64,000 nucleotides of DNA from a virus (IMGVR_UViG_3300045747_000505); one strand, 5' to 3'. Numbered from the stretch's first letter, positions 18,353-38,221 are shown. Numbers and translations are program-made. Notes: generated from the sequence alone by a model not told the origin.

Positions 18353-18450
18353 ATCTATTTCAAACACGCTGACCGAATCGCAATCGAAGGTTATCCTTTC
18401 ACGATCTCCCCTTCAACCGCACTTAACTTGTCGGCATGTTTGAAATAGAT
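18353..18450 (+). ncRNA. Y-RNA-like element 1
   Basis: 14-bp closing stem; GCUGA-C-CGA / UUG-UCGGC bulged-C helix; pyrimidine-rich loop. Confidence 0.6.
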
Positions 18451-18455
18451 TCAAT

Positions 18456-18532
18456 TGGTCGTTAGCTCAATCAGGCAGAGCACTCGCCTCCAAAGCGATA
18501 GGTTGTGGGTTCGATTCCTACACGGCCAGCCA
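18456..18532 (+). tRNA. tRNA-Trp(CCA)
   Basis: Cloverleaf, loop CT-CCA-AA, 3' CCA. Confidence 0.9.
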
Positions 18533-18541
18533 AATTTGAAT

Positions 18542-18616
18542 GCCTTCATAGCTCAGTGGTAGAGCACCGTCTTGATAAGGCGTAGGTCCTTGGTTCGATC
18601 CCAAGTGAAGGCACCA
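18542..18616 (+). tRNA. tRNA-Ile(GAT)
   Basis: Loop TT-GAT-AA, 3' CCA. Confidence 0.9.
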
Positions 18617-18627
18617 AGTTATTCAAT

Positions 18628-18702
18628 GCCGAGTTGGACTTTTGGTGAGGTCCTCTGCCCTTCAAGCAGAAGAGACGGGTTCGATTCCCGTACTCGGTAC
18701 CA
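18628..18702 (+). tRNA. tRNA-Glu(TTC), C33 variant
   Basis: TCTGC-CCTTCAA-GCAGA, 3' CCA. Confidence 0.85.
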
Positions 18703-18712
18703 ACAATTCTGT

Positions 18713-18786
18713 TGGGGTCTGGTGTTCTGGTGAACACAGTCGGCTTTGACCCGACCGAGGTGGGTTCGATCCCCACGTCCCCTGCA
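18713..18786 (+). tRNA. tRNA-Gln(TTG), no encoded CCA, imperfect acceptor stem
   Basis: GTCGG-CTTTGAC-CCGAC, TTCGATC T-loop. Confidence 0.7.
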
Positions 18787-18835
18787 TCCCGCATCGCAGT
18801 TCAGCACACATCTTTTTGTGTTACAATGAACTGCG

Positions 18836-19471
18836 ATGCAAAAGCCACCTAAGACTTACCACTACCTTTATCGAACAACCTGTCTTGTGACAGGCAAGTT
18901 CTATGTTGGTATGCACTCAACAGACGACCTCAACGACGGTTATCTTGGGAGCGGAAAGATTTTAGGTCGCTCTCGCAAAAAGCATGGTGACGAAAAACAT
19001 GTGAAAGAAATTCTTGAACACTGTGCCTCTCGTGAAGCGCTGAAACTTCGTGAGAAGGAAATAGTCTCAGCAGAGATGCTCGCCAACCCGTTGAACATCA
19101 ATTTGAAGATTGGCGGCGAAGGCGGTTGGGATCATATACCGCAGGAGGTAGTTCTATCGAACCTCTCAAAAAGAAATGTTGGTTGGGCGACCTACAACAG
19201 ATCAGAAAAGGGAAGGCTCAAAGCCTCTGAAAACATTCGCAAGATAAATGTTGTTGGTCGAAAGTCTTCTTATGGTTTTCGTGGCAAACAACATACCGAT
19301 GAAACTAAACAAATTCAAAGCCAGCACCATCAAGGTGCTGGCAACTCTCAATACGGAACTTGTTGGGTAACCAAAGACAACAAGTCATCCAAAATCAAAA
19401 AGACTGACCTTGACGAATACCTCGCTAATGGTTTCTCGAAAGGCAGAGTAATTTCTAAAATGGTGATGTAG
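18836..19471 (+). mobile_element. Seg-like GIY-YIG homing endonuclease
   Basis: YLYRTT..KFYVGMHST..GYLGSG; NUMOD-like HTDETK; SQYGTCWV; AT-richer than flanks. Confidence 0.85.
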
Positions 19472-19587
19472 TGTAGTGGCAGCACAGAAAACATCGTTCG
19501 CGCTTTTTGTTGCGCAAGTAACCGCTTGTGAATGGTTATCTTTATCATCCAAAGCTAGGGTTGGTTCGAATCCAGCCATCACCACCA
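19462..19587 (+). ncRNA. tRNA-like RNA with about 50-nt insertion in the anticodon arm
   Basis: 7-bp acceptor GGTGATG/CATCACC + ACCA, D-arm and T-arm present, about 74 nt between them. Confidence 0.6.
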
Positions 19588-19595
19588 AAATCAAT

Positions 19596-19671
19596 TCCGT
19601 CTTAGTATTCTCGGCGAGTACCTCCGGCTGTTAACCGGATGAGTCTGGTTCGAATCCAGAAGACGGAGCCA
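19596..19671 (+). tRNA. tRNA-Asn(GTT)
   Basis: TCCGG-CTGTTAA-CCGGA, CCA. Confidence 0.9.
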
Positions 19672-19679
19672 AGATCTGA

Positions 19680-19752
19680 TGGGGAGCGTCAAGGTTTGAC
19701 CGACTCGGCTCTGACCCGAGTTGCTTAGGTTCGAGTCCTAACTCCCTTGCCA
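19680..19752 (+). tRNA. tRNA-Gln(CTG)
   Basis: CTCGG-CTCTGAC-CCGAG, CCA. Confidence 0.85.
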
Positions 19753-19760
19753 AATTCTAT

Positions 19761-19836
19761 GCGTCGTTATCCGATGTGGTCATGGAAGCTCCCTGAAGAG
19801 GAGATAAACCGGGTTCGATTCCTGGACGACGCACCA
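19761..19836 (+). tRNA. tRNA-Phe(GAA)
   Basis: Loop CT-GAA-GA, CCA. Confidence 0.85.
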
Positions 19837-19844
19837 ATTATAAT

Positions 19845-19919
19845 ACTCGCTTGGTTCAGTGGTGGAACGCTTCCTTGACATGGAAGAGGTCGCAGGTCCG
19901 ATTCCTGCAGCGAGTACCA
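19845..19919 (+). tRNA. tRNA-Val(GAC)
   Basis: CTTCC-TTGACAT-GGAAG, variant T-loop TCCGAT, CCA. Confidence 0.85.
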
Positions 19920-19927
19920 AATTACAT

Positions 19928-20002
19928 GGGGTGCAAACTTTGACGGTGAAGCTCTGGCTCTTAACCAGATGGAAGACAGTTCGAATCTGTCGCGCCCCAC
20001 CA
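19928..20002 (+). tRNA. tRNA-Lys(CTT)
   Basis: TCTGG-CTCTTAA-CCAGA, CCA. Confidence 0.85.
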
Positions 20003-20010
20003 AACACAAT

Positions 20011-20080
20011 ACCCGGTCCAATGGATTGGCTGCGGTCCTACGAAGGCTGCGTGATCGGTTCGACTCCGATACTGGGTTCA
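20011..20080 (+). tRNA. tRNA-Arg(ACG), short D-arm, no CCA
   Basis: CGGTC-CTACGAA-GGCTG. Confidence 0.7.
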
Positions 20081-20087
20081 TGATAAT

Positions 20088-20162
20088 GGGTTCGTAGCTC
20101 AGAGGCAGAGCAGGCGGCTCTTAACCGTCAGGCCGAGATTTCGAAATTCTCCGGACCCACCA
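20088..20162 (+). tRNA. tRNA-Lys(CTT), second
   Basis: GGCGG-CTCTTAA-CCGTC, CCA. Confidence 0.88.
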
Positions 20163-20168
20163 AGATAC

Positions 20169-20232
20169 AGACAACCGTACGACTCAGCGTTATCCTGTTA
20201 AGATTCCCCGCTTTGTCACTCCTTTGTTGTCT
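20169..20232 (+). ncRNA. Y-RNA-like element 2
   Basis: AGACAA-C-CG / UG-UUGUCU bulged helix; inner loop TTATCCT..GATTCCC shared with element 1. Confidence 0.55.
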
Positions 20233-20236
20233 CAAT

Positions 20237-20312
20237 ATCCCGTTCGTCTAGCGGCCAAGGACACTGCCCCCTCAAGGCGGGAACTCCGGTTCAAATCCGG
20301 AACGGGATTCCA
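20237..20312 (+). tRNA. tRNA-Glu(CTC), C33 variant
   Basis: CTGCC-CCCTCAA-GGCGG, CCA. Confidence 0.85.
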
Positions 20313-20320
20313 AATACAAT

Positions 20321-20395
20321 ACCGAGTTGGACTTTTGGTGAGGTCCTCTGCCCTTCAAGCAGAAGAGACGGGTTCGATTCCCGTACTCGGTACCA
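20321..20395 (+). tRNA. tRNA-Glu(TTC), near-identical duplicate of 18628
   Basis: Differs only at base 1 (A vs G). Confidence 0.85.
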
Positions 20396-20402
20396 GCATA
20401 AT

Positions 20403-20477
20403 GGATCGGTAGCCTAACGGTCAGGCACCTCTCTGTCTAAGAGGTTCAAGCGGGTTCGACTCCCGTCCGGTCCGCCA
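20403..20477 (+). tRNA. tRNA-Asp(GTC)
   Basis: CCTCT-CTGTCTA-AGAGG, CCA. Confidence 0.9.
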
Positions 20478-20483
20478 GCATGT

Positions 20484-20559
20484 AGGCTTTAGAGTGATTG
20501 GAAATCCTATCCCTTTCATGAGGGGATGTTGCGAGGTTTGAATCCTCGATAGCCCGCCA
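20484..20559 (+). tRNA. atypical tRNA(CAT) (Met/Ile2-like)
   Basis: TCCCT-TTCATGA-GGGGA, 1:72 mismatch, T-loop TTTGAAT, CCA. Confidence 0.55.
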
Positions 20560-20569
20560 GATATTCAAT

Positions 20570-20643
20570 GGTGGTTCTAGTGTAGTGGCAGCAAGACGGT
20601 CTGTGAAACCGTAAGGCAGGGTTCGATTCCCGGTCCCACCCCA
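20570..20643 (+). tRNA. tRNA-His(GTG), mismatched acceptor stem
   Basis: G-1 and C73; ACGGT-CTGTGAA-ACCGT. Confidence 0.75.
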
Positions 20644-20664
20644 CCTGATTCAGATAAATAGAAG

Positions 20665-21309
20665 ATGAACAAACATCATCTAGTTTATCGCACGACGAAC
20701 CTTCTGAACGGAAGGTATTACATCGGCATCCATTCAACGTCGAACATCGACGATGGGTATCTTGGTAGCGGTCGTAGGATCAAGGCGGAAATCAAGAAGT
20801 ACGGTCAAGAGAATTTCAAGCGTGAGATCCTTGAGTCATACCCAACAAGGCAAGAAGTCTTGAAACGCGAAGCCGAATTGGTCACTGAAGAACTTCGTCA
20901 AGATTCGCTCTGTCTGAATCTTAAGAATGGCGGCGAAGGCGGTTGGGAACATCTGAATGACAACTCTGAGGTCCAACGCGCAAAAGGACGTAAAGGAAAT
21001 GCCAGCATCAAGATCTTGGCAAATGATCCTATTTGGGCCGCATCAAGAAGCGCAGCAATCAGCAATGGTCTTCGCGGAAAGTCTGCTGGGTGGAGTGAAC
21101 AAGCAACAATGGCTTCGCACACCGATGAAGTAAATCAAAAGCGAAGTCGCACAATGAAAGACTTGGCAAGGCAATCAGGCCAAGCAAATTCCCAGTTCGG
21201 AACCTGTTGGGTGACCAACGGGTTTCCAATAAAGATCAAGAAACAAGATCTCGATTCGTATCTGACAAATGGATATGTTCGAGGAAGAACAAAACAATGG
21301 TGCACGTAG
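20665..21309 (+). mobile_element. Seg-like GIY-YIG homing endonuclease
   Basis: LVYRTT..RYYIGIHST..GYLGSG; SQFGTCWV; paralog of 18836. Confidence 0.85.
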
Positions 21310-21375
21310 ATCAATTGGTAGATCCCGGGATTGTGATTCCCGTCGTTGTGGGTTCGAGTCCCATCGTGCACCCCA
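21299..21375 (+). tRNA. tRNA-His(GTG)
   Basis: G-1, C73; CGGGA-TTGTGAT-TCCCG; CCA. Confidence 0.9.
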
Positions 21376-21385
21376 GTATTTCAAT

Positions 21386-21459
21386 GCCCTCGTAGCACAT
21401 TGGTCGTGCGCACCTTTGGTATGGGTGAGAACAGAGTTCGATTCTCTGCTTGGGCACCA
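21386..21459 (+). tRNA. tRNA-Thr(GGT)
   Basis: CACCT-TTGGTAT-GGGTG, CCA. Confidence 0.88.
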
Positions 21460-21467
21460 ACTATAAC

Positions 21468-21543
21468 GCCCGCGAAGTATTACCTGGTGGTACGCGTCTT
21501 TCGTACGGATGAGGACTCAGTTCGAGGCTGAGCGTGGGCTCCA
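21468..21543 (+). tRNA. tRNA-Thr(CGT)
   Basis: CGTCT-TTCGTAC-GGATG, CCA. Confidence 0.8.
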
Positions 21544-21550
21544 GTACAAT

Positions 21551-21628
21551 TGTGGTCGAGCAAGCAAGGTGTATGCACCGCACTGTTAATGCGGACAGAG
21601 CCGGGTTCGATTCCTGGGACCACAGCCA
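21551..21628 (+). tRNA. tRNA-Asn(GTT), second
   Basis: CCGCA-CTGTTAA-TGCGG, CCA. Confidence 0.88.
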
Positions 21629-21637
21629 GATCAAAGT

Positions 21638-21712
21638 GTCTCCGTAGTTCAACGGAGAGAATAGGACGCTACGAACGTTCAGACGGGGGTTCGATTCCCT
21701 CCGGAGGCACCA
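21638..21712 (+). tRNA. tRNA-Arg(ACG), second
   Basis: GGACG-CTACGAA-CGTTC, CCA. Confidence 0.88.
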
Positions 21713-21749
21713 CTATAAATAAGTCATCGCAACTCAACCGGATAAGCGT

Positions 21750-21995
21750 ATGACACTCCTTCAAGAACTCCTTGACCTGCCAAACAAAGCGCCAAAGGCC
21801 TTCAAGGCCGGCGACAAGTTTGACATCACCAACAATGGCCTTCACTTCACCATCGAGGTGGTCGCCGCCGACAAGGGTCCGTCTGAACTTCAGATCGAGA
21901 CCGTGCGCGATGGCAAGGCTCGCAAGAGCTACACCGATGCGCTTGAGCTCAGCGCTCGCCTTCGCGACTGCGAGAAGTTCAAGAAGGTCAAGTAA
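21750..21995 (+). CDS. small late protein
   Basis: TATAAATA at 21714; MTLLQELLDL resembles the 35073 N-terminus. Confidence 0.7.
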   Translation: MTLLQELLDLPNKAPKAFKAGDKFDITNNGLHFTIEVVAADKGPSELQIETVRDGKARKSYTDALELSARLRDCEKFKKVK

Positions 21996-22003
21996 CAATC
22001 AAT

Positions 22004-22078
22004 GGTGCTGAAGCTGAATGGTTAAGCAGCGGTCTCATAAGCCGTGCGTCGTGGGTTCGATTCCCACCAGCACCACCA
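22004..22078 (+). tRNA. tRNA-Met/Ile2(CAT)
   Basis: GCGGT-CTCATAA-GCCGT, CCA. Confidence 0.88.
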
Positions 22079-22199
22079 ATTACAAGAGGTCGATGCCGGC
22101 ACCTACGAGGCCGTTGTCGTACGAGTCTAACAACTTGAAAGGACGCATCATGCGTACAGTGTCATCGACGCTTGATGCGTCTCGAAAACGAACCCCTTT

Positions 22200-22273
22200 G
22201 GGGGCGTAGTTAAGTGGTATAACATGCGGCTTTTACCCGTTCGTCCTGAGTTCGATTCTCAGTGCCCCTACCA
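22200..22273 (+). tRNA. tRNA-Lys(TTT)
   Basis: Loop CT-TTT-AC, CCA. Confidence 0.85.
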
Positions 22274-22558
22274 TTATTGAACCAGCCAGTTCATCCTTAT
22301 GTTACCTAGAGGTAACTCTCGCTATGTTACCTAGGTAACATAACCACACTGTGAAATCGACATTCCCCGTATATAGATTATGAACCGCCTTATGTGCAGT
22401 ACTGCACTTAGTGTTCTGTACTGTACAGACTTTCCGCTGTGCTTTGTTCGGGGGCGTATAAATACATTCAACGAGCAGCAAGACTCGTCGAGGTAGCGCA
22501 GACCAAATCAGGCCATTGGCCTTTTAGGCGACGAACCACAAGGTTCGTCGCCCTCTTT

Positions 22559-22630
22559 ACCCCTGCCGAAGGAGCGGTGGCCGGCCTTCTAAGCTGGCAT
22601 ATGTGAGTTCGAGTCTCACCAGGGGTTCCA
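22559..22630 (+). tRNA. tRNA-Arg(TCT)
   Basis: CCGGC-CTTCTAA-GCTGG, CCA; short D-arm. Confidence 0.8.
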
Positions 22631-22867
22631 GATTGATGTAGATCAATTAAACCGCAATGACCGAAACCTTTTCTAGGTTCGGGTCAGTTTATGTGTTTAT
22701 TGACTGGTGTTTCTAAAGTGATTCGTGTAAATACATCTGTCCAGTACAGAACATAACAGTCCCAAAGAGGACTGCAAGAATTGTGGGAACCAACCCATGA
22801 CGGTAACGGCGACGCACACCGCTAGTCTTTGCTCACGCAATGTGAGCCGAGCATTAAGGAGCGGTCA

Positions 22868-23806
22868 ATGCCAACAGCAACCACAAATGAGACGGTACCT
22901 CCGAAGATGATCGACGCAGTCGTCGGTCTTGACGGTCTGCCTCTCAATATTGCGGTGGCCATCGAAGCAACCCGCAACGTTGACAACAACAGCGCCACAG
23001 CCACAATTCAACAGGCTAGTGTCGCAACCAAAGGGGAAACTACTATGGCAGACATCGTTACCGGCACCACCACGGGCCAACTCGACACCACCGCGCTCAT
23101 GCAGGACCACGCCGACATCCGTCGTGAAAATGCACAAAGCGAAGCACAGGTTCGTCGTGACATTCAATCAACCAGCGGCGATTCTCGTCGCGAAGCAGCC
23201 GAGATCGGCGCCGCAAGCGCCTATCAGAACGCTACTCAACACGCCGGCATCGTCGACCAGGTGAAGTCTGCTGGTTGGGCCAACTCGGACCGCACCGGCA
23301 CCGAAGCTGACCGCGTCGTCGGTCAGGGCACCGCCTACTTCATCGCTGAGCAGCAGTACGCTTTCAACAACGCTACCGCCGTAGCTGCGCTGAAGGCCGG
23401 CACTGACATGCAGTTCGCGAACACTCTCAGCGCCATCAATTCCGCAGCCCAAATGGGTCAGGCAGCGACGGCTCTTGAAGGTGCGAAGTCGGCTGCAGCT
23501 GCAGCTCTCGGCCAAGCCCTCATCGGCCAGCAAATCGTTGCTGACGGCAACAACACCCGCGCGCTCATCAACGAGCTCAAGATGGAGCAGCTCAACCGCG
23601 AACTCATCGAGCGCAACGCTGCTCTCGTCGAGGCACGTGGTGACTGCCGCTACTGGCAGGGTGGCTACAACCAGTCGCAGTTCGCCGCTGTGACCTCCCA
23701 GCTTCAGGCCTTTCAGAGCCAGCTCTCTGAGACCCGCCAAGGCATGGTGAACTTCGGTACTCAATCCGGAGTTGGTCAGACCGCGACCACGAACTCCGTT
23801 CGTTAA
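22868..23806 (+). CDS. Ala/Gln-rich coiled-coil protein (possible second in-frame start at 23045)
   Basis: AAGGAG RBS before 22868; GGGGA RBS before 23045. Confidence 0.7.
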   Translation: MPTATTNETVPPKMIDAVVGLDGLPLNIAVAIEATRNVDNNSATATIQQASVATKGETTMADIVTGTTTGQLDTTALMQDHADIRRENAQSEAQVRRDIQSTSGDSRREAAEIGAASAYQNATQHAGIVDQVKSAGWANSDRTGTEADRVVGQGTAYFIAEQQYAFNNATAVAALKAGTDMQFANTLSAINSAAQMGQAATALEGAKSAAAAALGQALIGQQIVADGNNTRALINELKMEQLNRELIERNAALVEARGDCRYWQGGYNQSQFAAVTSQLQAFQSQLSETRQGMVNFGTQSGVGQTATTNSVR

Positions 23807-25810: not shown

Positions 25811-25886
25811 GGGTCAGTAGCTCAATTGGCAGAGTTCTGGTCTCCAAAACCAGCGGTTCGGGGTTCGAGTCCCTGCTGGCCCGCCA
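25811..25886 (+). tRNA. tRNA-Trp(CCA), second
   Basis: CTGGT-CTCCAAA-ACCAG, CCA. Confidence 0.9.
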
Positions 25887-26585: not shown

Positions 26586-28649
26586 GTGAAGCAGCTCACA
26601 CCAGTAGCGCTTGCCGTGGCGCTACTTCACAGCACAGCACAGGCTGAACCAGTCGCCCTACGCGCTGTCAACAGCACGGTTGACCAGACAACATCAATCG
26701 TTCGGCTCGAGCTCTCAAAGCAAATCGCGCTGCCAACAGCCTTTACCAGCGATTCGTCAACCGTCGTTGTAGACCTTGACAATGTCAAGAACATTGGCTC
26801 ACGCAAGCTGCTTGTCAACAAGGGCAACCTCAATGAGGTCAACGTTCGCACCAGCGGCGACCGCACGCGCGTCACCATCTCGCTGACCGGACGCTCGAAC
26901 TACGACCTCACCGTTGACGGTGCCTCCATCGTCATCGTGTTCAAGCCGCCATCAGACACTGCCCGCACCAAGGCGTCTGCCGCGATGGTGATTCAACCGA
27001 CCATTGAGTTTCCATCCTCATCGCCGAAGGGCGAGACGCCAGACAAGCTGCTCGCCAACGCGAAGATTGCCTATGAGGCCGGCAACTTTCAAACGGCGCT
27101 TGAGAAGCTGAACGGACTGCTGATTCTGCCACCATCGGCTTCAACGCAAGAGGGTCAAGAGCTGATTGGGCAGGTGCGTGAGCGGCTGAAGCAGCCTGAG
27201 AAGGCGATGGCTGAGTACAAGGCGTTCATCGCGATGTACCCAGACAGCCCAGCCGTGGCGCGCACTCGTCAGCGCCTGCTCGCCCTTGAGATTGCCACAC
27301 CAGACAAGGTCCCAGAGCAGCGCGCTCGCAAGGCGAAGACAGGCAAGGGCAATGACGTCACGGGCAGCGTGGCAACCTACCTCTACGTTGGTGCGGCACC
27401 TGCCAAGGCGCTGACCTGGACAGCAGACCAGCAGGTGCTAATCAACAATGCATCGGCGACTGCGACGTTTCGCGATGACCAATACACAGTCAAGGTCGCC
27501 GGGCGTGGGTCGGTGCTCACCAATCTTCTTGACAGATCCCGTCATCGCAACTCGCTGTCGGTCTTCAACGTCTCGCTCGACGACAGTCTTCACGACTACG
27601 GCGTTCGACTCGGGCGCCAGAACGCCACCGCTGGCATTCTCGGGCGCTTCGATGGCGCCTCTGGTTACTACAATCTGACCGCCGATACGAAGATGCTGTT
27701 CGGCTTCGGCGCTCCGTATCTTAGCTCGCCATCAACTCGTCGAACTGCCAGCATTGGCATCGATTCATCGCTCACCTCCACGCTTGGTGTTCAGGCGTAT
27801 CTCAACAAGCAGAAGGTTGATGGCGTCACAGAGCGCAGCGCTCTTGGACTTGAGGGTCGCTACTTCAATAACGGTCTGTCGCTCACCGGCACCGTTGAGT
27901 ACGATACGCTCTACAAGGTGCTGAACACCTCAATGGTTCAGGGCACTTGGGTCTTCGGCGACAACACGCTCTACTTTCTAGCCGATCGTCGATTGGCGCC
28001 AGCGCTCTTCGCTGAGCGCCTGCTTCAGCTCGACTCAGCGGCTGGACCGCGCTACGGAACTGTTGGCGAAGCCTTTGGAACCTCTGGCTTCTCGCGTGAC
28101 GAGCTCTACGCCTATCTGGCAGCGTCATCGCCAGTCTCGAAGGCGTTCGTGGTAAGCTGGAGCAATCAGATTACGCCAAAGTGGCTTGGTTCAATCAGCG
28201 GTCAAACGACGAACTACTACACGCCATTCAATCAGTCAGTCATTCCAACTGAGGAGCCAATCGCTCCGGTGCAGACGATCAGCTCAATGAAGGGTCTGAA
28301 CGTTCAGCTGCTTGGGTCTGACACGCCGATGAAGGGTGGTTCCATTCATCTGCTCGGCAACTACAGCAAGTCGAAGGAGACGGCGCTTTGGTATACGGCG
28401 CTACTTAGCTCGTTCGCTTGGCGCTCGTCAAAGGTCGACGTGATGCTGAGAACCGACCGAACGATGCGCCAGTTCACGACGATTGGCAGCGTTGGTGGGT
28501 CAGTCCGCCTCAACTACAAGTTCGACTCTGGCATCTCGATTGAAACGCAGTACAGTCTGACGCGCACCACCACCGTCGATGAGCTTATGCTTCTCTCAAC
28601 CATTCTAAATAGTCAGACGTTCTTCATCGGGTTCCGCTATGAAATCTAG
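26586..28649 (+). CDS. AMIN + TPR + outer-membrane beta-barrel (porin-like) protein
   Basis: Signal peptide AQA; PilQ-like AMIN; TPR helices (..YPDSPAVARTRQRL); amphipathic strands ending FFIGFRYEI. Confidence 0.8.
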   Translation: MKQLTPVALAVALLHSTAQAEPVALRAVNSTVDQTTSIVRLELSKQIALPTAFTSDSSTVVVDLDNVKNIGSRKLLVNKGNLNEVNVRTSGDRTRVTISLTGRSNYDLTVDGASIVIVFKPPSDTARTKASAAMVIQPTIEFPSSSPKGETPDKLLANAKIAYEAGNFQTALEKLNGLLILPPSASTQEGQELIGQVRERLKQPEKAMAEYKAFIAMYPDSPAVARTRQRLLALEIATPDKVPEQRARKAKTGKGNDVTGSVATYLYVGAAPAKALTWTADQQVLINNASATATFRDDQYTVKVAGRGSVLTNLLDRSRHRNSLSVFNVSLDDSLHDYGVRLGRQNATAGILGRFDGASGYYNLTADTKMLFGFGAPYLSSPSTRRTASIGIDSSLTSTLGVQAYLNKQKVDGVTERSALGLEGRYFNNGLSLTGTVEYDTLYKVLNTSMVQGTWVFGDNTLYFLADRRLAPALFAERLLQLDSAAGPRYGTVGEAFGTSGFSRDELYAYLAASSPVSKAFVVSWSNQITPKWLGSISGQTTNYYTPFNQSVIPTEEPIAPVQTISSMKGLNVQLLGSDTPMKGGSIHLLGNYSKSKETALWYTALLSSFAWRSSKVDVMLRTDRTMRQFTTIGSVGGSVRLNYKFDSGISIETQYSLTRTTTVDELMLLSTILNSQTFFIGFRYEI

Positions 28650-29322
28650 CCTGCTGCTTGCACTGCTTCTCTTCGCCTCATCCTGCTTCGGCGCCGAGTG
28701 CACGCTCTACGAGAAGACGCACCCAACGTTTCTGCTCGATGGAGCGCACCTCTCCACCGGCAAGTGCAACACCTGCGCCTCGTGCCACAAGGGCGGCGTG
28801 TTCATGGGAACACCACGAACCTGCATCGGGTGCCACAACGGCGACCCAGCTCGAATGACCGTAGGACGCAGCCCCACGCATATTCCAACTGGATTGATTG
28901 ACTGCAACACGTGTCACAAGACGCTTGCCTTCACCATCGGCACTGTGATGAACCACACGGCGGTCACGACCATCCAGTGTCGAGCCTGCCACGACGGCTT
29001 TCACCTTACATCGAACGCGCTTGGCAAACCGTCCAACCACATTCCAGAAATCAACCTGATTGGCGGGTCGACGATGGACTGCAACCTCTGTCACAAGTCA
29101 ACCATCACTTGGACTGGCGCTGTCACGAACCACAACAACACGCCTGGCAATGGCGCTGGCTGGTGCGTTGGCTGTCACCTGCGTGGACAGACTTGGCTGG
29201 GCGCAGGCACTCGAATGTTGCTCAATCATCGCAATAAGACGCCGCCTCCGACGGATTGCTCAATGTCTGGCTGCCATCGCCCACTTGGCAACACGGGAAC
29301 CACCTACAGAAGTTGGGACTGA
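28639..29322 (+). CDS. multiheme cytochrome c (6 CxxCH + 1 CX4CH)
   Basis: Signal peptide; CASCH, CIGCH, CNTCH, CRACH, CNLCH, CVGCH, CSMSGCH. Confidence 0.92.
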   Translation: MKSSLLLALLLFASSCFGAECTLYEKTHPTFLLDGAHLSTGKCNTCASCHKGGVFMGTPRTCIGCHNGDPARMTVGRSPTHIPTGLIDCNTCHKTLAFTIGTVMNHTAVTTIQCRACHDGFHLTSNALGKPSNHIPEINLIGGSTMDCNLCHKSTITWTGAVTNHNNTPGNGAGWCVGCHLRGQTWLGAGTRMLLNHRNKTPPPTDCSMSGCHRPLGNTGTTYRSWD

Positions 29323-29411
29323 ACCTCACTTAATTTAGCTTAATCATGAACCTAAGATAAAATGAGCAGGCTGATAAATACTTAACATCTGTTTACTTCC
29401 TGGAGAACGCC

Positions 29412-30137
29412 ATGTTCCGCAAACTTCTAGCAATCCTCTCACTCGCCGTCTCGAGCCTACTGATGCCTGGCACGGTAGCGCTCGTCTCGCTCGCACCATC
29501 TACCGCGCTGGCGGCGGAGTGCACCCTATACGAGCAATCACATCCAGCGTTTACCCTGGATGGCAGCCACATGTCAACTGGTAAATGCTCGACGTGCGCC
29601 TCGTGCCACCTCTCCGGCATCTTCATCGGCACGCCGAAGACGTGTATCGCCTGTCACAACGGCGACCCGCTTCGCGTGACGGTCGGTCGCTCACCGCAGC
29701 ACATTCCGACAACGGTCATTGACTGCAACAACTGCCACACAACCGGCTCATTCCTGACGAATTTCAACATGAACCACACCGCCGTTGCTGGTCAGCGCTG
29801 CGATACCTGCCACACTGGCACCTTCAAGGCCGTCTACAACGCCGATGGCAAGCCGAACACTCACGTGCCAACCACGTCTGACTGCGGCACCTGCCACCAG
29901 TCGCGTACCGCCTGGGGTGTTCAGCACGAGGTCCTCCACGCTGGCGTCACCACTGGCTGCGTCACCTGCCACGATGGCTCCTACGCCGTTGGCAAGTCGA
30001 ACTACGCTCCTGGCCACCCTCTGACCTCTGACCAGTGCGAGACGTGCCACAGCATCAACGCCAACTTCAAGTGCGCCAGCCTCGGCGACCTCATGAAGAA
30101 CTTCGCGTTCATTCGCAAGGCTTTCAACATCGCCTAA
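29412..30137 (+). CDS. heptaheme cytochrome c
   Basis: Signal peptide; CASCH, CIACH, CNNCH, CDTCH, CGTCH, CVTCH, CETCH; paralog of the previous gene. Confidence 0.92.
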   Translation: MFRKLLAILSLAVSSLLMPGTVALVSLAPSTALAAECTLYEQSHPAFTLDGSHMSTGKCSTCASCHLSGIFIGTPKTCIACHNGDPLRVTVGRSPQHIPTTVIDCNNCHTTGSFLTNFNMNHTAVAGQRCDTCHTGTFKAVYNADGKPNTHVPTTSDCGTCHQSRTAWGVQHEVLHAGVTTGCVTCHDGSYAVGKSNYAPGHPLTSDQCETCHSINANFKCASLGDLMKNFAFIRKAFNIA

Positions 30138-32746: not shown

Positions 32747-32790
32747 ATAGGTAAGCGGCGATTCGACCGCAGAACAATCAAGGAGGTCCT

Positions 32791-33271: not shown

Positions 33272-33381
33272 ACCATCGAACTAAAACAGATTTGCGACGG
33301 GACGTCTGTTTGTAACAGCCGTCCCGTTTTTGTTACAGCTCTGCGTGTGCAGAGCGCAAAGAACTAGAGTATAATGACAGC

Positions 33382-33843
33382 ATGACAACCCAACCTAAAG
33401 ATGACGCTGGCTACGAGAAGCGGTCCCGCGCAGGCCTGATCCCATTCATTCGTGATGGGCACGCCGGTGCGATTCAGTATCTCATGATGGTCAGCTCTGA
33501 CCCGAAGTTCGGCGGGCCTCGCCCGATGATCTCGAAGGGCAAGATCGAAGACGGTGAAACGCCAATCGAGGCGGCGAAGCGTGAGGCCGAGGAAGAGCTT
33601 GGCTTTCGCATGCGCAACTCGCGTGGCCTACCATGCCTCGTGTTCGACGGGCGTCAAGAGCTGTACTCAGGCGCCTATCACCTCACGGTGTATGGTGTCG
33701 AGGTTCAAAGTCGCTGGGACTTTGACAAGTGGTGTGACGAGACAGAGTACACCGTGTGGATGTCGTTGGAGGACTTCAAACAGAAAGGCCGGCGTGACCA
33801 CGTGAAGTTCGTGGAGACGCTGGAGCAAATGGTGACGCAATGA
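33382..33843 (+). CDS. NUDIX hydrolase (paralog of 17281)
   Basis: GKIEDGETPIEAAKREAEEELG; shared MVSS..GG.P.ISKG. Confidence 0.9.
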   Translation: MTTQPKDDAGYEKRSRAGLIPFIRDGHAGAIQYLMMVSSDPKFGGPRPMISKGKIEDGETPIEAAKREAEEELGFRMRNSRGLPCLVFDGRQELYSGAYHLTVYGVEVQSRWDFDKWCDETEYTVWMSLEDFKQKGRRDHVKFVETLEQMVTQ

Positions 33844-34436
33844 GCCGAATACTCTCGCTAGACTCGCAAGGCACGCCGAACGAGTGGATCTCACATCAGG
33901 ACGCAATCGTCTATCACGCAAAGTCGCTGGTTGCTTGGCAGCTCGGCGAGGGTGAAGGGGACGTGCTGTTCCGTGGTGGCGACAATCGTATCACTGGCCA
34001 GCAGTCACGCATCGTCACGGCGCCGATCATCGCCATCAAGGGCAAGGCGGCTGCGTCCAAGCGTCAGAAGCCACCGTCGCTGACGAACCCATCGCTGTTT
34101 CAGCGTGACGCTCACATCTGCGCCTACTGTGGCGACAAGTTCAGGTTTGACGACCTGACGCGTGACCACGTGGTTCCGACGTCGCGTGGTGGTCGAGACA
34201 TCTGGACGAACGTCGTCACCGCGTGCTCGCCGTGCAACAACGTCAAGGACAACCGAATGCTCGACGAGTGCGGCATGAAGTTGCTCTACGTTCCGTACGC
34301 ACCGAACCTGGCCGAAGCGCTGATCCTCAGCGGTCGCAACATTCTGGCTTGCCAGATGGAGTATCTCCTCGCCTTCATTCCGAAGGACTCACGAGTCCTC
34401 ACGCAACTGAGGGCTGATCAGGTACGTCTCCACTAG
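33840..34436 (+). CDS. HNH endonuclease (McrA-like)
   Basis: CAYCG..TRDHVVPTSRGG..W.NVVTAC..CNN.K. Confidence 0.9.
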   Translation: MSRILSLDSQGTPNEWISHQDAIVYHAKSLVAWQLGEGEGDVLFRGGDNRITGQQSRIVTAPIIAIKGKAAASKRQKPPSLTNPSLFQRDAHICAYCGDKFRFDDLTRDHVVPTSRGGRDIWTNVVTACSPCNNVKDNRMLDECGMKLLYVPYAPNLAEALILSGRNILACQMEYLLAFIPKDSRVLTQLRADQVRLH

Positions 34437-34959
34437 ATTGACGCTTCCGTTCCCAGCTAAGCAACATGCTCGCCCGCCTTCTGTCTCTTGTTTCTTGAGA
34501 TTGAGGTGGGCGATTCTTGGCCACAAGGCGCATGGTCTCAGAAAAGGTTTCGCCACGATCCTTTCCGACCTTAGCCAAACGCATCTTCTCAAGGGTCTCT
34601 GGTGAGTGGGTCTTTCCGAAGAATGGATTCAACTTGCCGGCTTTGTCATAGACGGTCCCACGCTTGGCGACATTGAGGAGCGTTCCTCCCTCGTCAAGAT
34701 GGCTTCGGCCATACTGATCTATCAGCCCAGCTTCTAGATCAACAGCCTCGGTCTTTGTGAGGTCTGTCCGCAGCACTTCAACTATAGGTTCAAGCCCATC
34801 ATCCACAAGGGATTTTATCCACTTCGTCAGACGAGGACTTGCTGTTGTTCGTCCAAGCTTGATCAACCTAAGATGCGAGTACGGACGATCTGGCGAACCC
34901 TCTCCAACATACCGAACCTGAAAAGTCTTAGGACACTTCAACACGTACAGAACCTTCAT
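34399..34959 (-). mobile_element. GIY-YIG homing endonuclease with NUMOD3
   Basis: LYVLK..RYVGEG..R; NPFFGKTHSPET. Confidence 0.8.
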
Positions 34960-35072
34960 GAGTATAATCCTCCTATGGATCTATTTATCGGAGTATCTGA
35001 AGTCTTTTCAACATCTCGCACGCCCACTAGGTGGGTGAGTGAATAAATAGCTCACCCACTTAAGGACCAACC

Positions 35073-35462
35073 ATGACACTGCTCGCAGAACTCCTCGACC
35101 TTCGTGAAGCCAAGGGCACCATCGTCGTCGCCAAGCTTTGGATCGGCTACATCACCGGCGAAGACGAAGAGTCGATGGCCGGCGAAGAAGCCGATCTGAA
35201 TGTCACCGTCTTCTACGACGCCAAGACGCCGGAAGCTGCTCAGGCTCTTGCTGCCAAGATGGGTGCCGATGATGTCGAGATCGATGATGGCGACTGCTAC
35301 GACGCGCTGAACCACTACGCGCAGAACGGTGCGCCGGCTCGCAAGGGCTACTCGAACCTGCACGGCCCTGCCTACGTCACCAGCGTGAAGATCGCCTCGA
35401 AGGAGCCGAAGCTTGCTCAACGCGTCTTCGCGTTCCATCCGGCTGATCTCGGCTTCGAGTAA
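35073..35462 (+). CDS. late hypothetical protein
   Basis: AATAAATA upstream; MTLLAELLDLREA. Confidence 0.7.
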   Translation: MTLLAELLDLREAKGTIVVAKLWIGYITGEDEESMAGEEADLNVTVFYDAKTPEAAQALAAKMGADDVEIDDGDCYDALNHYAQNGAPARKGYSNLHGPAYVTSVKIASKEPKLAQRVFAFHPADLGFE

Positions 35463-35508
35463 GTCCTTTCGTTCCTGTTCAATTTTGTTTAGAGGTTGGA
35501 GAACCGCT

Positions 35509-36051
35509 GTGAATCCTATCGCCTATCTCGTGATGGCCATCTTCAACACGATCTACATCGGGCTGGCCGCATTCGGCCTGCTCTGGGTCTCGTTGTCTGG
35601 TTCGATGCTCGACGCGGTGATCGCGCTCAGTGTCGCTGCCGTCGGCTATCACCTGTCGAAGACCGCTGTGATCATGCTGCTGGCTCACTTCAACATGCCA
35701 GCGCCGATCTCAGCTGGCGCGATGCAGCGCGAGATCGACGAGCTGCTCGAGCTGTCATCGCAGCCTGACTTCAAGGTCACTCAAGAGATTGAGGACCGCA
35801 TGTTCCGAGTTGGCCTCAAGCCTGGCTACGACGTGGCTGATCGTGGTGAGCAGATCGGCACGCAGTTCGATGAGCCGATCTACGAGTGGATCGTCACGCA
35901 AGAGAGTCTGGCTGCGCCGTTGGCTCGCTACAACTACTGTGGTGCGGCTCAGCGCAACAGAGACGGTGTCGCCATCGAGGTCGATCGTGAGGACGTCGTC
36001 TGCTACAAGGGTCAGCTCTACGAGCTGGCGAAGGTCGACGAGAAAGCCTGA
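35509..36051 (+). CDS. membrane protein
   Basis: GGAG RBS, GTG start, N-terminal TMs. Confidence 0.7.
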   Translation: MNPIAYLVMAIFNTIYIGLAAFGLLWVSLSGSMLDAVIALSVAAVGYHLSKTAVIMLLAHFNMPAPISAGAMQREIDELLELSSQPDFKVTQEIEDRMFRVGLKPGYDVADRGEQIGTQFDEPIYEWIVTQESLAAPLARYNYCGAAQRNRDGVAIEVDREDVVCYKGQLYELAKVDEKA

Positions 36052-36172
36052 ACCTAAACAGCACCAACAACCATTCTCAAAAGTAGTGTACAATACACTC
36101 CTGTTCGATAAATAGAACTGTTGGCGAAAGCCACGCGAGCCGTCCGACCTTACAACGACGGCAAAGAACTAG

Positions 36173-36302
36173 TGAACCGCTAGGATTGATTATCAATGGC
36201 TGCCGCCGCAAGGCGAAAAGAGACCACTACTCGCAATATGTGGAATTCTCGATCCACCCTTCGTTCACACCCTTTCTAGGTCTTCAACTCTCATTCTGTT
36301 CA
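36173..36302 (+). ncRNA. Y-RNA-like element upstream of ro60
   Basis: UGAA-C-CG / UG-UUCA bulged helix, long pyrimidine-rich tract, in a 540-nt noncoding gap. Confidence 0.5.
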
Positions 36303-36595
36303 ACCCAGTGCTAACCGGCTCGTCTTGGTTACCACAAGTGAAATGCGCTTAGGTACCTCTAGCTTCGGCCACGTCTTTTGCGCCGTACGTCAACTCGTTA
36401 ATTGACTAAGTCGTCGTGGCTGAAAACCACGAACGTTAGTGGGTCGAAACCACGCAGGCTATCGCGAGCCAGAAAAGAGCGATGTAGGCGAACCACTGAA
36501 GAGATTCAGCCGCCGAACTTCCGAGGCACAATTTCGTTGCCACTGGTTTGAACACCACTTTGCTGCACATCGCAGCCGTTCCAAGGAGAAACATC

Positions 36596-38221
36596 ATGTC
36601 AAACGTCTACGCAGAATTCGCATCCGCTGACTCGACTTCCAAGCAGGCTCGCCAGTCCACTTCCCCGACGCAGGTCATCCCGGGCCGTGAGGCCGACATG
36701 TCCGCCAACAACGGCGGTGGCTTCAGCTTCGTCATGACGAAGTGGGGCGTGCTCGACCGCTTCATCATGCTCGGCACCGAGAAGGCCGGCTACTACGTCG
36801 GCCAGAAGGAGCAGACGAAGCAGTCCTTCGACACCGTCAAGGCGTGTCTGAAGGAAGATGGTCTCCGCGTCGTGGCTCGCATCGTCGAGTACTCGCTGGC
36901 TGGTCGTGCTCCGAAGAATGATCCGGCCGTCGTGGCCCTGGCTCTCGCAGCCGTGTACGGTGACGACGCGACCCGCGCAGTAGCCTTCGAAGCGCTGCCG
37001 AAGGTCGCCCGTACCGGCACGTGGCTGTTCCTGTTCGTGTCGATCCTCGACTCGCTGGGCAAGTGGAACGCGGCTGCAAAGCGTGGCGTTGCCGCTTGGT
37101 ACACGACGAAGCAGGTCGACCGTCTGGCCGTTCAGCTGCTCAAGTACCAGTCCCGCAATGGCTGGGCGCACCGTGACGTTCTGCGTCTCGCGCACGTCAA
37201 GCCGTCGTCTGACGTTCAGTCGGCCCTGTTCCGCTACGCGGTGAAGGGTGCCGAGGGCATCGAGTTCGGCACGATGGTGCCGCAGCTGCTCGTCGACTTC
37301 GAGCTCTTGAAGCGCACGACCGACAAGAAGGAAGTGCTTCGCCTGATCGAGTCCAACGACTTCATCAGCTGGGAAATGGTCCCGACGCAGTGGCTGAAGG
37401 ATCCGGACGTGCTGACCCTGCTCGTCAAGAACATGGGCCTCACGGCCGTGATTCGCAAGCTGGGTGCGCTGACGGCCCATGGCGTGATCAAGCCGCTCTC
37501 GAGCGGTCTGAAGGACGTCGTGGCGAAGCTGACGGACTCCGAGCAGCTGAAGCGCCAGCGCGTTCACCCGATCACGCTGCTCCAGTCCCTGAAGCAGTAC
37601 TCGGTCGGCCACGGCGACAAGGGTTCGTTGGTCTGGGTTCCGAACCAGCGCGTCATCGATGCTCTGGACTCGGCGTTCTACGACGCGTTCACGCACGTCG
37701 AAACGAAGGGTGAGAACTACCTCATCGCGTGCGACATCTCTGGCTCGATGCAGGGTGCGAACGTCAACGGTTCTCCGAACCTCACGGCAGCTGAAGTTGC
37801 GGTGGTCATGGCGATGGTTGTTGCGCGCAAGCAGGACAACTACCACATCGTTGGCTACAACCAGCGTTTGGTCGACCTGCACGTCTCGCCGACGATGCGT
37901 CTCGACGCTGCCATGGCTTCGTACAAGAAGCAGCACTGGGACGGCGCCGGTACCGACTGCGCCAAGCCGTTCGAGGCTGCCCTCGCCAACAAGTGGCCTG
38001 TCGACAAGTTCGTCAGCATCACTGACAACGAGGTCAACTCGGGCTCGCAGCACCCGGCGCAGGCTCTGGCCAAGTACCGCAAGGGCTTGAACGCCATGGC
38101 GAAGTCGGTGGTCATCGGCACCTCGGTGTCGGAGTTCACCATCGCCGACCCGAAGGACTCCGGTTCTTTGGACATCGCAGGCTTCGACTCAGCTGCTCCG
38201 CAGCTGATCTCCGACCTGTGA
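36596..38221 (+). CDS. rsr: Ro60/Rsr TROVE-domain RNA-binding protein with vWA C-terminus
   Basis: NNGGGFSF, LDRFIMLGTE..YY, KYQSRNGWAHRDVLRLAH, DISGSM (MIDAS), TDNE. Confidence 0.95.
   Translation: MSNVYAEFASADSTSKQARQSTSPTQVIPGREADMSANNGGGFSFVMTKWGVLDRFIMLGTEKAGYYVGQKEQTKQSFDTVKACLKEDGLRVVARIVEYSLAGRAPKNDPAVVALALAAVYGDDATRAVAFEALPKVARTGTWLFLFVSILDSLGKWNAAAKRGVAAWYTTKQVDRLAVQLLKYQSRNGWAHRDVLRLAHVKPSSDVQSALFRYAVKGAEGIEFGTMVPQLLVDFELLKRTTDKKEVLRLIESNDFISWEMVPTQWLKDPDVLTLLVKNMGLTAVIRKLGALTAHGVIKPLSSGLKDVVAKLTDSEQLKRQRVHPITLLQSLKQYSVGHGDKGSLVWVPNQRVIDALDSAFYDAFTHVETKGENYLIACDISGSMQGANVNGSPNLTAAEVAVVMAMVVARKQDNYHIVGYNQRLVDLHVSPTMRLDAAMASYKKQHWDGAGTDCAKPFEAALANKWPVDKFVSITDNEVNSGSQHPAQALAKYRKGLNAMAKSVVIGTSVSEFTIADPKDSGSLDIAGFDSAAPQLISDL

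What the first reader, a model, noticed from the sequence alone, without database searches (positions are those of the whole stretch)
18353..38221. Ro60 plus a dispersed family of Y-RNA-like elements, several embedded in the tRNA array
The phage encodes a clear Ro60/TROVE protein (36596). At least four noncoding elements share a terminal helix with one bulged C followed by C-G and G-U pairs, the arrangement of the Ro60-binding helix in Y RNAs (human Y1: GU-C-CGA/UUG-AC). The elements are 18353-18450 (GCUGA-C-CGA/UUG-UCGGC), 20169-20232 (AGACAA-C-CG/UG-UUGUCU), 22381-22450 (UGAA-C-CG/UG-UUCG) and 36173-36302 (UGAA-C-CG/UG-UUCA, directly upstream of ro60). Elements 1 and 2 also share an inner loop, TTATCCT-n-GAT(C/T)(T/C)CC, held by different covarying stems (GAAGG/CCTTC vs AGCG/CGCT). 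Established: bacterial Rsr binds Y RNAs and is linked to RNA repair and decay, often near rtcB and tRNA-damage responses. Inference: the phage builds several Ro60 RNPs, co-transcribed with its tRNAs, for tRNA quality control or to counter anticodon-nuclease defences.
Basis: partly seen in the sequence, partly recalled or inferred. Interest (0 to 1): 0.88.

Follow-up and report, generated by a model that had tools for sequence, protein, structure and literature searches.

The report
Phage Ro60 with four partner RNAs
An uncultured huge phage encodes the ring-shaped RNA-binding protein Ro60 together with four small "Y-type" partner RNAs, two next to the gene and two sitting like extra tRNAs inside its tRNA gene array. 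The arrangement is conserved in related phages, and the RNA family is not in the RNA family catalogue.

Summary
The core observation holds, with corrections. Ro60 (36596-38221) is a canonical TROVE+vWA protein.

- **Elements 1 and 2:** 18367-18436 and 20169-20232 belong to a covarying RNA family: outer helix, bulged C, C-G, invariant G.U, inner stem ending GG, then UUAUC, closed by CCC. A covariance model built without any window sequence finds exactly these two in 64 kb.
- **Link to Ro60:** the family sits just upstream of Ro60 in most of 37 related viral contigs. Contigs found through the RNA motif alone also carry Ro60. Five large Ro60-free viral contigs have no match.
- **tRNA arrays:** every copy far from Ro60 fills a slot between tRNA genes on the tRNA strand.
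- **Element 4:** real, but its 3' end is 36268, not 36302.
- **Missed partner:** a second, 236-nt RNA (36308-36543) lies between element 4 and Ro60.
- **Element 3:** not a member.
- **Databases:** no Rfam family reaches threshold. The nearest is the nematode stem-bulge (Y-homologue) model, which aligns CCG, GGGUUAUC, CCC and CAACUUG in relatives.
- **Untested:** binding, expression and any link to tRNA damage.

This scan has noted comparable Ro60/Y-RNA modules before on other DNA (Felix O1-type phages, giant-virus contigs). Verdict: a new variant of the known phage Ro60-Y RNA system.

The parts
36596..38221 (+). Ro60 (TROVE + vWA) gene. The longest ORF starts at TTG 36548; the ATG at 36596 follows AGGAG.
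   Evidence: Pfam PF05731 and PF25045. PDB 9nen, 1yvp and 2nvo at E 1e-90 to 1e-95. 37 IMG/VR relatives at 54-69% identity.
18367..18436 (+). Handle GCUGA-C-CG / UG-UCGGC, inner stem GAAGG/CCUUC, loop UUAUC-CUUUCAC-GAU. It lies just before the first tRNA (Trp, 18456).
   Evidence: R1 E = 1e-3 and R2 E = 3e-8. Fold z = -5.8. Orthologue in the tRNA array of a relative, with a compensated inner stem (L166).
18353..18450 (+). Perfect 14-bp helix extending element 1. It is specific to this window and may be a processing stem.
   Evidence: Read from the sequence and MFE fold. Absent from the orthologue L166.
20169..20232 (+). Handle AGACAA-C-CG / UG-UUGUCU, inner stem AGCG/CGCU, loop UUAUC-CUGUUAA-GAU. 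It fills a slot between tRNA-Lys (ends 20162) and tRNA-Glu (starts 20237).
   Evidence: R1 E = 9e-9 with a model that held no window sequence. tRNA coordinates.
36172..36268 (+). Handle GUGAA-C-CG / CG-UUCAC, inner stem GGAUUG/CGAUCC, motif GAUUAUC, about 55-nt insert.
   Evidence: Descriptor scan, and the same element 250-480 nt upstream of Ro60 in relatives. Not reached by the models. Outer-helix shuffle p = 0.145 on its own.
36308..36543 (+). Long Ro60-proximal Y-type RNA (Y-B; new here). Handle GUGCUAA-C-CG / CG-UUGCCAC, motif GGUUACC, and three inner hairpins, one with a T-loop-like GUCGAAA loop.
   Evidence: Second CCG-N-GGTTAYC signature conserved in about 30 loci. Closing helices of 7-9 bp covary across relatives. 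RNAalifold gives 15 of 23 pairs with compensatory changes.
18456..22273 (+). tRNA gene array (22 ARAGORN calls, all on the + strand) that hosts RNAs 1 and 2.

Best explanation
The phage makes a Ro60 ribonucleoprotein with several alternative partner RNAs of one family. Each RNA is a hairpin. Its base is a conserved 'handle': a helix interrupted by one unpaired C, followed by a C-G (or U-G) pair and an almost invariant G.U pair. This is the arrangement Ro60 recognises in animal Y RNAs. An inner stem ending in GG, the motif UUAUC and a closing CCC carry a variable top that would engage other factors.

Two RNAs (a 97-nt short one and a 236-nt long one) are encoded head to tail just upstream of ro60 and are probably transcribed with it. 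This resembles the YrlB/YrlA pairs beside bacterial rsr. Two further short RNAs are inserted as slots in the tRNA array, 4-19 nt from the neighbouring tRNAs. They would be made from the tRNA precursor and trimmed by the tRNA end-processing enzymes.

Shown here: family membership, covariation, genomic linkage to Ro60, and tRNA-slot placement.

Inferred: Ro60 binding through the handle, release by RNase P and 3'-processing enzymes, and a role as tether or gate between Ro60 and a host exoribonuclease such as PNPase, as in Deinococcus, Salmonella and Thermus phage phiLo.
For: 1. **Independent model.** R1, built from other contigs, recovers elements 2 and 1 and nothing else in 128 kb of searched strand.
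2. **Covariation.** In 36 distinct family members 91% of cells pair, against 37-49% with partners slid. 16 of 20 pairs show compensatory change. G.U is kept in 33 of 35.
3. **Linkage.** Model matches lie 200-800 nt upstream of Ro60 on the same strand in many of the 37 Ro60 loci. The handle-plus-UUAUC signature occurs in 32 of 36 upstream windows, at 2.0 per kb against 0.12 per kb elsewhere.
4. **Reverse test.** Seven loci fetched only through the loop motif and confirmed by the model have Ro60 within about 300 nt. The contigs of three of them, the only usable ones the genome tool holds, show TROVE. None of roughly 100 chance motif hits has Ro60. Five Ro60-free viral contigs of 136-353 kb have no model match.
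5. **tRNA arrays.** All distant copies in 8 large Ro60 contigs lie between tRNA genes on the tRNA strand.
6. **Shared scaffold.** Established actinophage Y RNAs upstream of Ro60 share the handle and GGUUAYC, with a tRNA-like insert.
7. **Animal-type design.** The nematode stem-bulge RNA model aligns CCG, GGGUUAUC, CCC and CAACUUG of a relative at 25.7 bits. The bulged C and UUAUC are hallmarks of animal Y and stem-bulge RNAs (PMC4726728).
8. **Precedent.** Phage Ro60 binds upstream-encoded Y-like RNAs and host PNPase in phiLo (PMC12135203).
Against: - There is no evidence that any of the four RNAs is expressed or binds Ro60. Only DNA metagenomes hold this phage, and the complex predictor does not handle RNA.
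- No Rfam family (Y_RNA, YrlA) reaches even E = 10 on the window's elements.
- Y-A and Y-B are not found by my covariance models. Y-A's own outer helix is short (5 bp; shuffle p = 0.145), and neither MFE fold is better than shuffles. Their case rests on conserved position and on covariation in relatives.
- In Y-A and Y-B the 3' strand reads CG, not UG, so the 'bulged' C could pair instead.
- Alignment A6 was fitted to the model, which inflates pair counts.
- The bacterial motif GNCGAA is present only loosely: CCGAA in element 1, and CCGUA, CCGCU and CCGGC in the others.
Confidence: 0.78

Rival explanations
1. The array-embedded elements are structural or processing spacers of the tRNA operon (RNase III/E/P guide hairpins or degenerate tRNA remnants). 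They have no relation to Ro60, and the resemblance of the helix to a Y RNA is coincidental.
For: They occupy tRNA slots with tRNA-like spacing. Element 1 carries an extra perfect 14-bp stem that looks like a processing site. Rfam finds no Y RNA family.
Against: The same family, with the same invariant handle and UUAUC motif, lies directly beside Ro60 genes in dozens of contigs, including contigs with no tRNA next to it. It is absent from five large Ro60-free viral contigs. The elements have no cloverleaf or T-arm.
Confidence: 0.07
2. Only the two Ro60-proximal RNAs are functional Ro60 partners. Elements 1 and 2 are duplicated, decaying copies that landed in the tRNA array.
For: Known Y RNAs lie within 2-4 kb of Ro60 (PMC4201824). 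Elements 1 and 2 are 16-18 kb away. Element 2 folds only weakly (z = -1.7).
Against: Array copies keep the handle, the G.U pair and compensated stems across distant relatives. One example is element 1 against L166, with inner stems GAAGG/CCUUC and ACAAGG/CCUUGU. Array copies are present in 8 of 10 large Ro60 contigs searched. That is purifying selection, not decay.
Confidence: 0.08
3. The family binds another conserved protein encoded near Ro60, or acts in cis on ro60 expression as a 5' leader, rather than forming a Ro60 RNP.
For: Y-A and Y-B fill the whole 5' region of ro60, and Y-B ends about 50 nt before the start codon. No binding data exist.
Against: In giant-virus-like contigs the RNAs are divergent from Ro60, and in L149 they lie downstream of it, so a leader role cannot be general. 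Array copies are far from ro60. The handle matches the experimentally defined Ro60 site of Y RNAs (PMC4726728, PMC4201824).
Confidence: 0.07

Closest known systems
Bacterial and actinophage Y RNAs YrlA/YrlB bound by Rsr/Ro60 (Chen et al. 2014, PMC4201824; Rfam RF02553)
   Same: They are encoded in tandem just upstream of Ro60 on the same strand, as one long and one short RNA. They share the handle (stem, C, CG ... UG, stem), and in the actinophage loci I read also GGUUAYC after the inner stem. [quoted passage not shown]
   Different: RF02553 gives no match on the window's elements. The short RNAs have no T or D arms. The strict GNCGAA motif is not kept. Extra copies lie 16-18 kb away inside the tRNA array, a place that the 2014 search excluded by design (within 4 kb only; tandem-tRNA overlaps discarded).
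Thermus phage phiLo Ro60 with Yrl1/Yrl2 (PMC12135203)
   Same: A phage Ro60 with two Y-like RNAs immediately upstream. Ro60 and PNPase binding were shown experimentally there.
   Different: phiLo Ro60 is only distantly related (E = 2e-6 against about 1e-90 for animal and Deinococcus Ro60). No tRNA-array copies are reported there.
Animal Y RNAs and nematode stem-bulge RNAs (Rfam RF00019, RF01656; PMC4726728)
   Same: A lower stem with a single bulged C followed by CG/UG, an upper stem ending GGG, UUAUC at the start of the loop, and closing CCC. The RF01656 consensus aligns all four blocks to a relative.
   Different: Scores stay below threshold (25.7 against 38 bits), and nothing at all matches on the window's own copies. 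The loops are far shorter. There is no 3' oligo-U or Pol III context. The host is a bacterium.
Ro60/Y-RNA-like modules noted earlier in this scan (Felix O1-type phages; giant-virus contigs)
   Same: Small stem-closed RNAs in tRNA-array spacers beside a Ro60-like gene (e1-4036987, e1-272486). A giant-virus Ro60 divergent from a row of Y-like RNAs (e1-5311237). The latter matches the GVMAG loci that my model hits.
   Different: Here Ro60 is canonical rather than a distant look-alike. The RNAs carry the UUAUC motif rather than the amoeba Class I-like handle those notes describe. I did not test those notes' sequences.

Membership tests
Rfam Y_RNA (RF00019) | Match to the covariance model at or above its gathering score | tested here: not met
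   No match at E <= 10 on elements 1, 2 or 4 or on relatives.
Rfam YrlA (RF02553) | Match to the model at 69 bits or more | tested here: not met
   Only chance-level matches, and those fall on tRNAs (20-21 bits). None at 35900-36700. The actinophage controls give 27-42 bits.
YrlA | tRNA-like domain (T arm plus D arm) inside the loop | tested here: inconclusive
   Absent from elements 1, 2 and Y-A. Y-B has one conserved T-loop-like hairpin and a following UAGG block, but no tRNA or YrlA model match.
YrlA/YrlB | Encoded within about 4 kb of Ro60 on the same strand | tested here: met
   Met for Y-A and Y-B, 328 and 53 nt upstream of the ATG. Not met for elements 1 and 2, which lie 16-18 kb upstream.
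YrlA/YrlB | 5' motif GNCGAAN0-1G | tested here: not met
   Element 1 reads ACCGAAUCG. Elements 2, Y-A and Y-B read CCGUA, CCGCU and CCGGC.
Y RNA in the operational sense (Ro60-bound small RNA) | Terminal helix with a bulged C and conserved flanking pairs | tested here: met
   Handle conserved with covarying outer stem. C-G or U-G in 31 of 35 and G.U in 33 of 35.
Y RNA in the operational sense | Physical association with Ro60 and Ro60-dependent stability | not testable with these tools
No RNA runs exist.
Nematode stem-bulge RNA (RF01656) | Model score of 38 bits or more | tested here: not met
   Best 25.7 bits on relative L137 and 21-26 bits on other relatives. No match on the window's copies.
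Nematode stem-bulge RNA / animal Y RNA design | UUAUC motif directly after an upper stem | tested here: met
   GGUUAUC in elements 1 and 2, GAUUAUC in Y-A, GGUUACC in Y-B. Aligned to the model's UUAUC in a relative.
Ro60 (TROVE) protein | TROVE HEAT-repeat ring plus C-terminal vWA domain | tested here: met
   PF05731 and PF25045 above their cut-offs. Full-length match to solved Ro60 and Rsr structures.

The most novel reading that the evidence does not exclude
Huge phages of bacteria, and giant-virus-like contigs, carry one Ro60 partner RNA family with the hallmarks so far regarded as eukaryotic: bulged-C lower stem, GGG-UUAUC...CCC upper stem. The actinophage YrlA RNAs are the same scaffold with a tRNA-like insert. 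That would link bacterial, viral and animal Y RNAs by descent or transfer rather than convergence. A bolder sub-reading: the 7-nt CU-NNN-A-N loops of the array copies (UUC, GUU, UCU, UUU in the middle) imitate anticodon loops, which would make these RNPs decoys or sensors for anticodon nucleases.
Probability: 0.3. Interest if true: 0.85.

Novelty: new variant of a known kind. Interest (0 to 1): 0.66.

Why it matters
Ro60-Y RNA particles are conserved from bacteria to humans, but their RNA partners were thought unrelated between the domains. Only tRNA-like YrlA RNAs next to the gene have been catalogued in prokaryotes.

This locus adds three things:
- a compact, easily modelled RNA family that travels with viral Ro60 genes;
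- evidence that phages spread extra Ro60 partners through their tRNA operons, which ties their production and trimming to tRNA biogenesis;
- a motif-level bridge (bulged C plus GGG-UUAUC) to animal Y and stem-bulge RNAs.

It offers a simple system for asking what different Y RNAs do for one Ro60 ring, and whether phage Ro60 particles act on tRNAs or on host RNA decay.

Tried and rejected
- **Rfam:** gathering and permissive scans of the array, the ro60 upstream region and the single elements gave no Y_RNA, YrlA or other family on the window's elements.
- **Known phages:** megablast of the region against GenBank phages found no relative.
- **Loop-motif scan of viral contigs:** mostly chance hits in coding DNA. 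Only about 12 of 119 loci showed the architecture.
- **MAFFT alignments of the elements:** these put the 5' handles out of register.
- **Complex prediction (Ro60 plus element 2):** not folded, because the tool gives no result for RNA. This is no evidence either way.
- **Promoter and terminator scan:** nothing decisive.
- **DNA search for element 3 in relatives:** empty, but uninformative at this divergence.
- **Scan of prokaryote genomes with Ro60:** one hit only, a 2.3-kb contig in a cyanobacterial MAG.
- **Pfam on 28 neighbouring ORFs:** apart from one RNA ligase, no RNA-repair genes such as RtcB or Pnkp among them.
- **Y-B closing at 36434-36441:** an early idea, rejected because that block is conserved in sequence but does not covary with the 5' handle. 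The helix at 36535-36543 does.


Full report
**What the window is.** The 64-kb window comes from an uncultured tailed phage. PHROG matches include tail fibre proteins, a peptidase and an RNA ligase. It has no close relative among GenBank phages. IMG/VR holds 37 contigs with a Ro60 at 54-69% identity, several of them 330-368 kb and complete with terminal repeats. ARAGORN finds 22 tRNA genes at 18456-22273 and one at 25811, all on the + strand.

**Ro60.** The ORF 36548-38221 carries TROVE and the Ro60 vWA domain. It matches solved Ro60 and Rsr structures over its full length at E of about 1e-90. An ATG at 36596 preceded by AGGAG is the likely start.

**The observation.** Their shared loop TTATCCT-n-GATYYCC occurs only at these two places in the window, against none in 100 shuffles. 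Element 1 folds far better than shuffles (z = -5.8), and element 2 modestly (z = -1.7).

**Finding the family.**
- A scan of IMG/VR for the loop motif returned mostly chance hits in coding DNA.
- About a dozen loci, however, showed the same architecture: outer stem, unpaired C, YG, inner stem ending GG(G), UUAUC, a small hairpin, CCC, 5-7 nt, UUG, outer stem.
- I built model R1 from six of these, none from the window.
- With filters off, R1 finds 20169-20232 (43 bits, E = 9e-9) and 18367-18436 (24 bits, E = 1e-3) and nothing else credible in the window.
- The retrained model R2 gives the same two.
- Elements 1 and 2 are therefore true members. Elements 3 and 4, as given, are not detected.

**Link to Ro60.**
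- In the 37 Ro60 loci the models hit 200-800 nt upstream of Ro60 on the same strand, again and again.
- Conversely, loci fetched only through the RNA motif turned out to encode Ro60 within about 300 nt: L047, L077, L087, L091, L096, L137 and L149.
- TROVE is present in all three usable contigs of that set.
- None of the roughly 100 chance motif hits has Ro60.
- Five large viral contigs without TROVE have no model match at E <= 0.01 in 1.13 Mb. Eight of ten large Ro60 contigs do.
- The orientation varies: upstream on the same strand in phages, divergent in the giant-virus-like contigs, and downstream in L149. That argues for a trans-acting partner RNA rather than a leader.

**Covariation.** On the 36 distinct matches aligned to the model, 91% of cells are paired, against 37-49% when partners are slid. 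Of 20 pairs, 16 show changes on both sides. The pair after the bulge is C-G or U-G in 31 of 35, and the next is G.U in 33 of 35. The alignment is model-fitted, so these numbers lean towards the structure, but the slid controls share that bias only in part. An invariant wobble pair inside freely covarying helices is what a protein recognition site looks like.

**tRNA-array copies.**
- Whole-contig searches show one to three further copies per genome, far from Ro60.
- Every one lies between tRNA genes on the tRNA strand, usually 4-12 nt from its neighbours.
- In the window, element 2 sits 6 nt after tRNA-Lys and 4 nt before tRNA-Glu. Element 1 sits 19 nt before tRNA-Trp, or 5 nt counting its extra 14-bp stem.
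- A relative's array holds an orthologue of element 1 with a compensated inner stem (L166).
- The obvious inference is co-transcription with the tRNAs and release by RNase P and 3' processing. This is inferred, not shown.

**The ro60 upstream region.**
- A descriptor scan (handle plus UUAUC plus complementary 3' end) finds the window's element 4 as 36172-36268. It finds equivalent elements at the same distance in L001, L003, L004, L021, L024, L033, L035 and others.
- An alignment of the upstream regions shows two conserved blocks.
- The signature CCG-N(5-12)-GGTTAYC occurs twice upstream of Ro60 in most loci. It is present in 32 of 36 upstream windows, at 2.0 per kb against 0.12 per kb elsewhere.
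- The second RNA is long. In the window it runs from 36308 to 36543, closed by GUGCUAA-C-CG with CG-UUGCCAC.
- In relatives the closing helices are 7-9 bp and covary, for example GACAAA/UUUGUC, CAGGGA/UCCCUG and GUCGUCAAA/UUUGACGAC.
- RNAalifold supports the inner stem and three internal hairpins, one with a T-loop-like GUCGAAA loop.
- The locus therefore reads short RNA, long RNA, ro60. This is the layout of YrlB/YrlA/rsr in bacteria and Yrl1/Yrl2/Ro60 in phage phiLo (PMC4201824, PMC12135203).
- Caveats: the covariance models do not reach these two. Their single-sequence folds are not better than shuffles. Their 3' strand reads CG, so the C may pair rather than bulge.

**Element 3.** It has UUAUG, no inner stem and no model match. 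It resolves into two short hairpins with T-rich tails, amid palindromes just after the last tRNA. It is more likely a terminator or operator region. A DNA search for it in relatives was empty but uninformative.

**Comparison with known families.**
- Rfam Y_RNA and YrlA do not match the window's elements, even at E = 10.
- In actinophage Ro60 loci, YrlA gives partial matches (27-42 bits). My model hits the same RNAs weakly, because they share the handle and GGUUAYC while their loop holds T and D arms. The family here is thus the YrlA scaffold without the tRNA-like insert, or, in Y-B, with at most a vestige of it.
- The only Rfam model that repeatedly touches family members is the nematode stem-bulge RNA model RF01656. 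Its consensus aligns CCG, GGGUUAUC, CCC and CAACUUG to a relative at 25.7 bits, below its 38-bit threshold.
- The review PMC4726728 describes the bulged cytidine as the Ro60 site and UUAUC as a motif shared by stem-bulge and vertebrate Y RNAs. It regards bacterial Y RNAs as not homologous to them. The motif-level match is therefore notable, but it is not membership.
- Chen et al. reported only RNAs within 4 kb of Ro60 and discarded matches overlapping tandem tRNAs (PMC4201824), so array copies would have been missed.

**Mechanism.** The best-supported reading is one Ro60 ring served by several partner RNAs that share the binding handle and differ at the top. Two are made with ro60 and two with the tRNAs. 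By analogy with Deinococcus, Salmonella and phiLo, the RNA would tether or gate Ro60 with an exoribonuclease. Its only support is co-location with tRNAs and an RNA ligase gene at 11273-12328. In passing I note that most array copies end in a 7-nt loop of the form CU-NNN-A-N. This resembles an anticodon loop, but it is equally the 'small pyrimidine-rich loop' already described for YrlB-type RNAs.

**Earlier notes of this scan.** These describe Ro60-like genes with small RNAs in tRNA arrays of Felix O1-type phages, and a giant-virus Ro60 beside a row of Y-like RNAs. My GVMAG loci reproduce the second. I did not test the first.

**Verdict.** The finding is real and conserved, and it is only partly anticipated by the literature. 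I class it as a new variant of the phage Ro60-Y RNA system. Binding and function are still to be shown.

Noticed in passing
window 20003-20087 (+): An 85-nt gap between two tRNA-Lys genes folds as a cloverleaf-like RNA, with a 7-bp acceptor-like stem and a good T arm but an aberrant anticodon arm. Neither ARAGORN nor Rfam calls it. It may be a pseudo-tRNA or an odd tRNA.
   Followed up: partly
window 22559-22627 (+) and 19462-19584 (+): Rfam tRNA matches that ARAGORN missed. One scores 28.9 bits, just under threshold, and has anticodon loop CUUCUAA (Arg-UCU). The other is a 123-nt match at 38.3 bits, which suggests a tRNA with an insertion.
   Followed up: no
window 18836-19471 and 20665-21309 (+): Two ORFs of about 210 aa interrupt the tRNA array. 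The second is a GIY-YIG (SegE-like) homing endonuclease.
   Followed up: no
window 11273-12328 (+): An RNA ligase (PF09414, phrog_24030) with an HNH-like N-terminal part lies 7 kb upstream of the tRNA array. NUDIX ORFs lie at 17281-17745 and 33382-33843.
   Followed up: partly
window 26586-30137 (+): An AMIN/TPR protein is followed by two multihaem cytochrome c7-like ORFs (28639-29322 and 29412-30137). This is an unusual auxiliary cargo for a phage.
   Followed up: no
window 22274-22460 (+): A cluster of perfect palindromes follows the last array tRNA: GTTACCTAGGTAAC-type twice, GTGCAGTACTGCAC, and CTGTAC-T-GTACAG. It looks like an operator or terminator.
   Followed up: partly
window 18335-18358 (+): A strong GC hairpin with a T tail (terminator-like) lies immediately before element 1. 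Its tail forms the 5' strand of element 1's extra 14-bp stem.
   Followed up: no
L176 (2.3-kb contig binned in an Oscillatoriales cyanobacterium MAG): It carries the same short RNA / long RNA / Ro60 module at 67% protein identity. This is either a hint at the host or a binning artefact.
   Followed up: no
L087 3995-4123; L149 1663-1788: tRNA genes with insertions of about 58-67 nt in the anticodon arm lie next to the Ro60/Y-RNA module, in a giant-virus-like contig and in a 140-kb viral contig.
   Followed up: no
L047 2789-3230 (-); L087, L091, L096: Some contigs carry three or four family members in tandem next to Ro60. One of them has a 104-nt expanded loop.
   Followed up: partly
array copies: window 18398-18404 and 20197-20203; L104, L016, L017, L166, L170: The apical loops are mostly 7 nt of the form CU-NNN-A-N on a short stem, with UUC, GUU, UCU or UUU in the middle. 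This is anticodon-loop-like, but it may simply be a pyrimidine-rich loop.
   Followed up: partly
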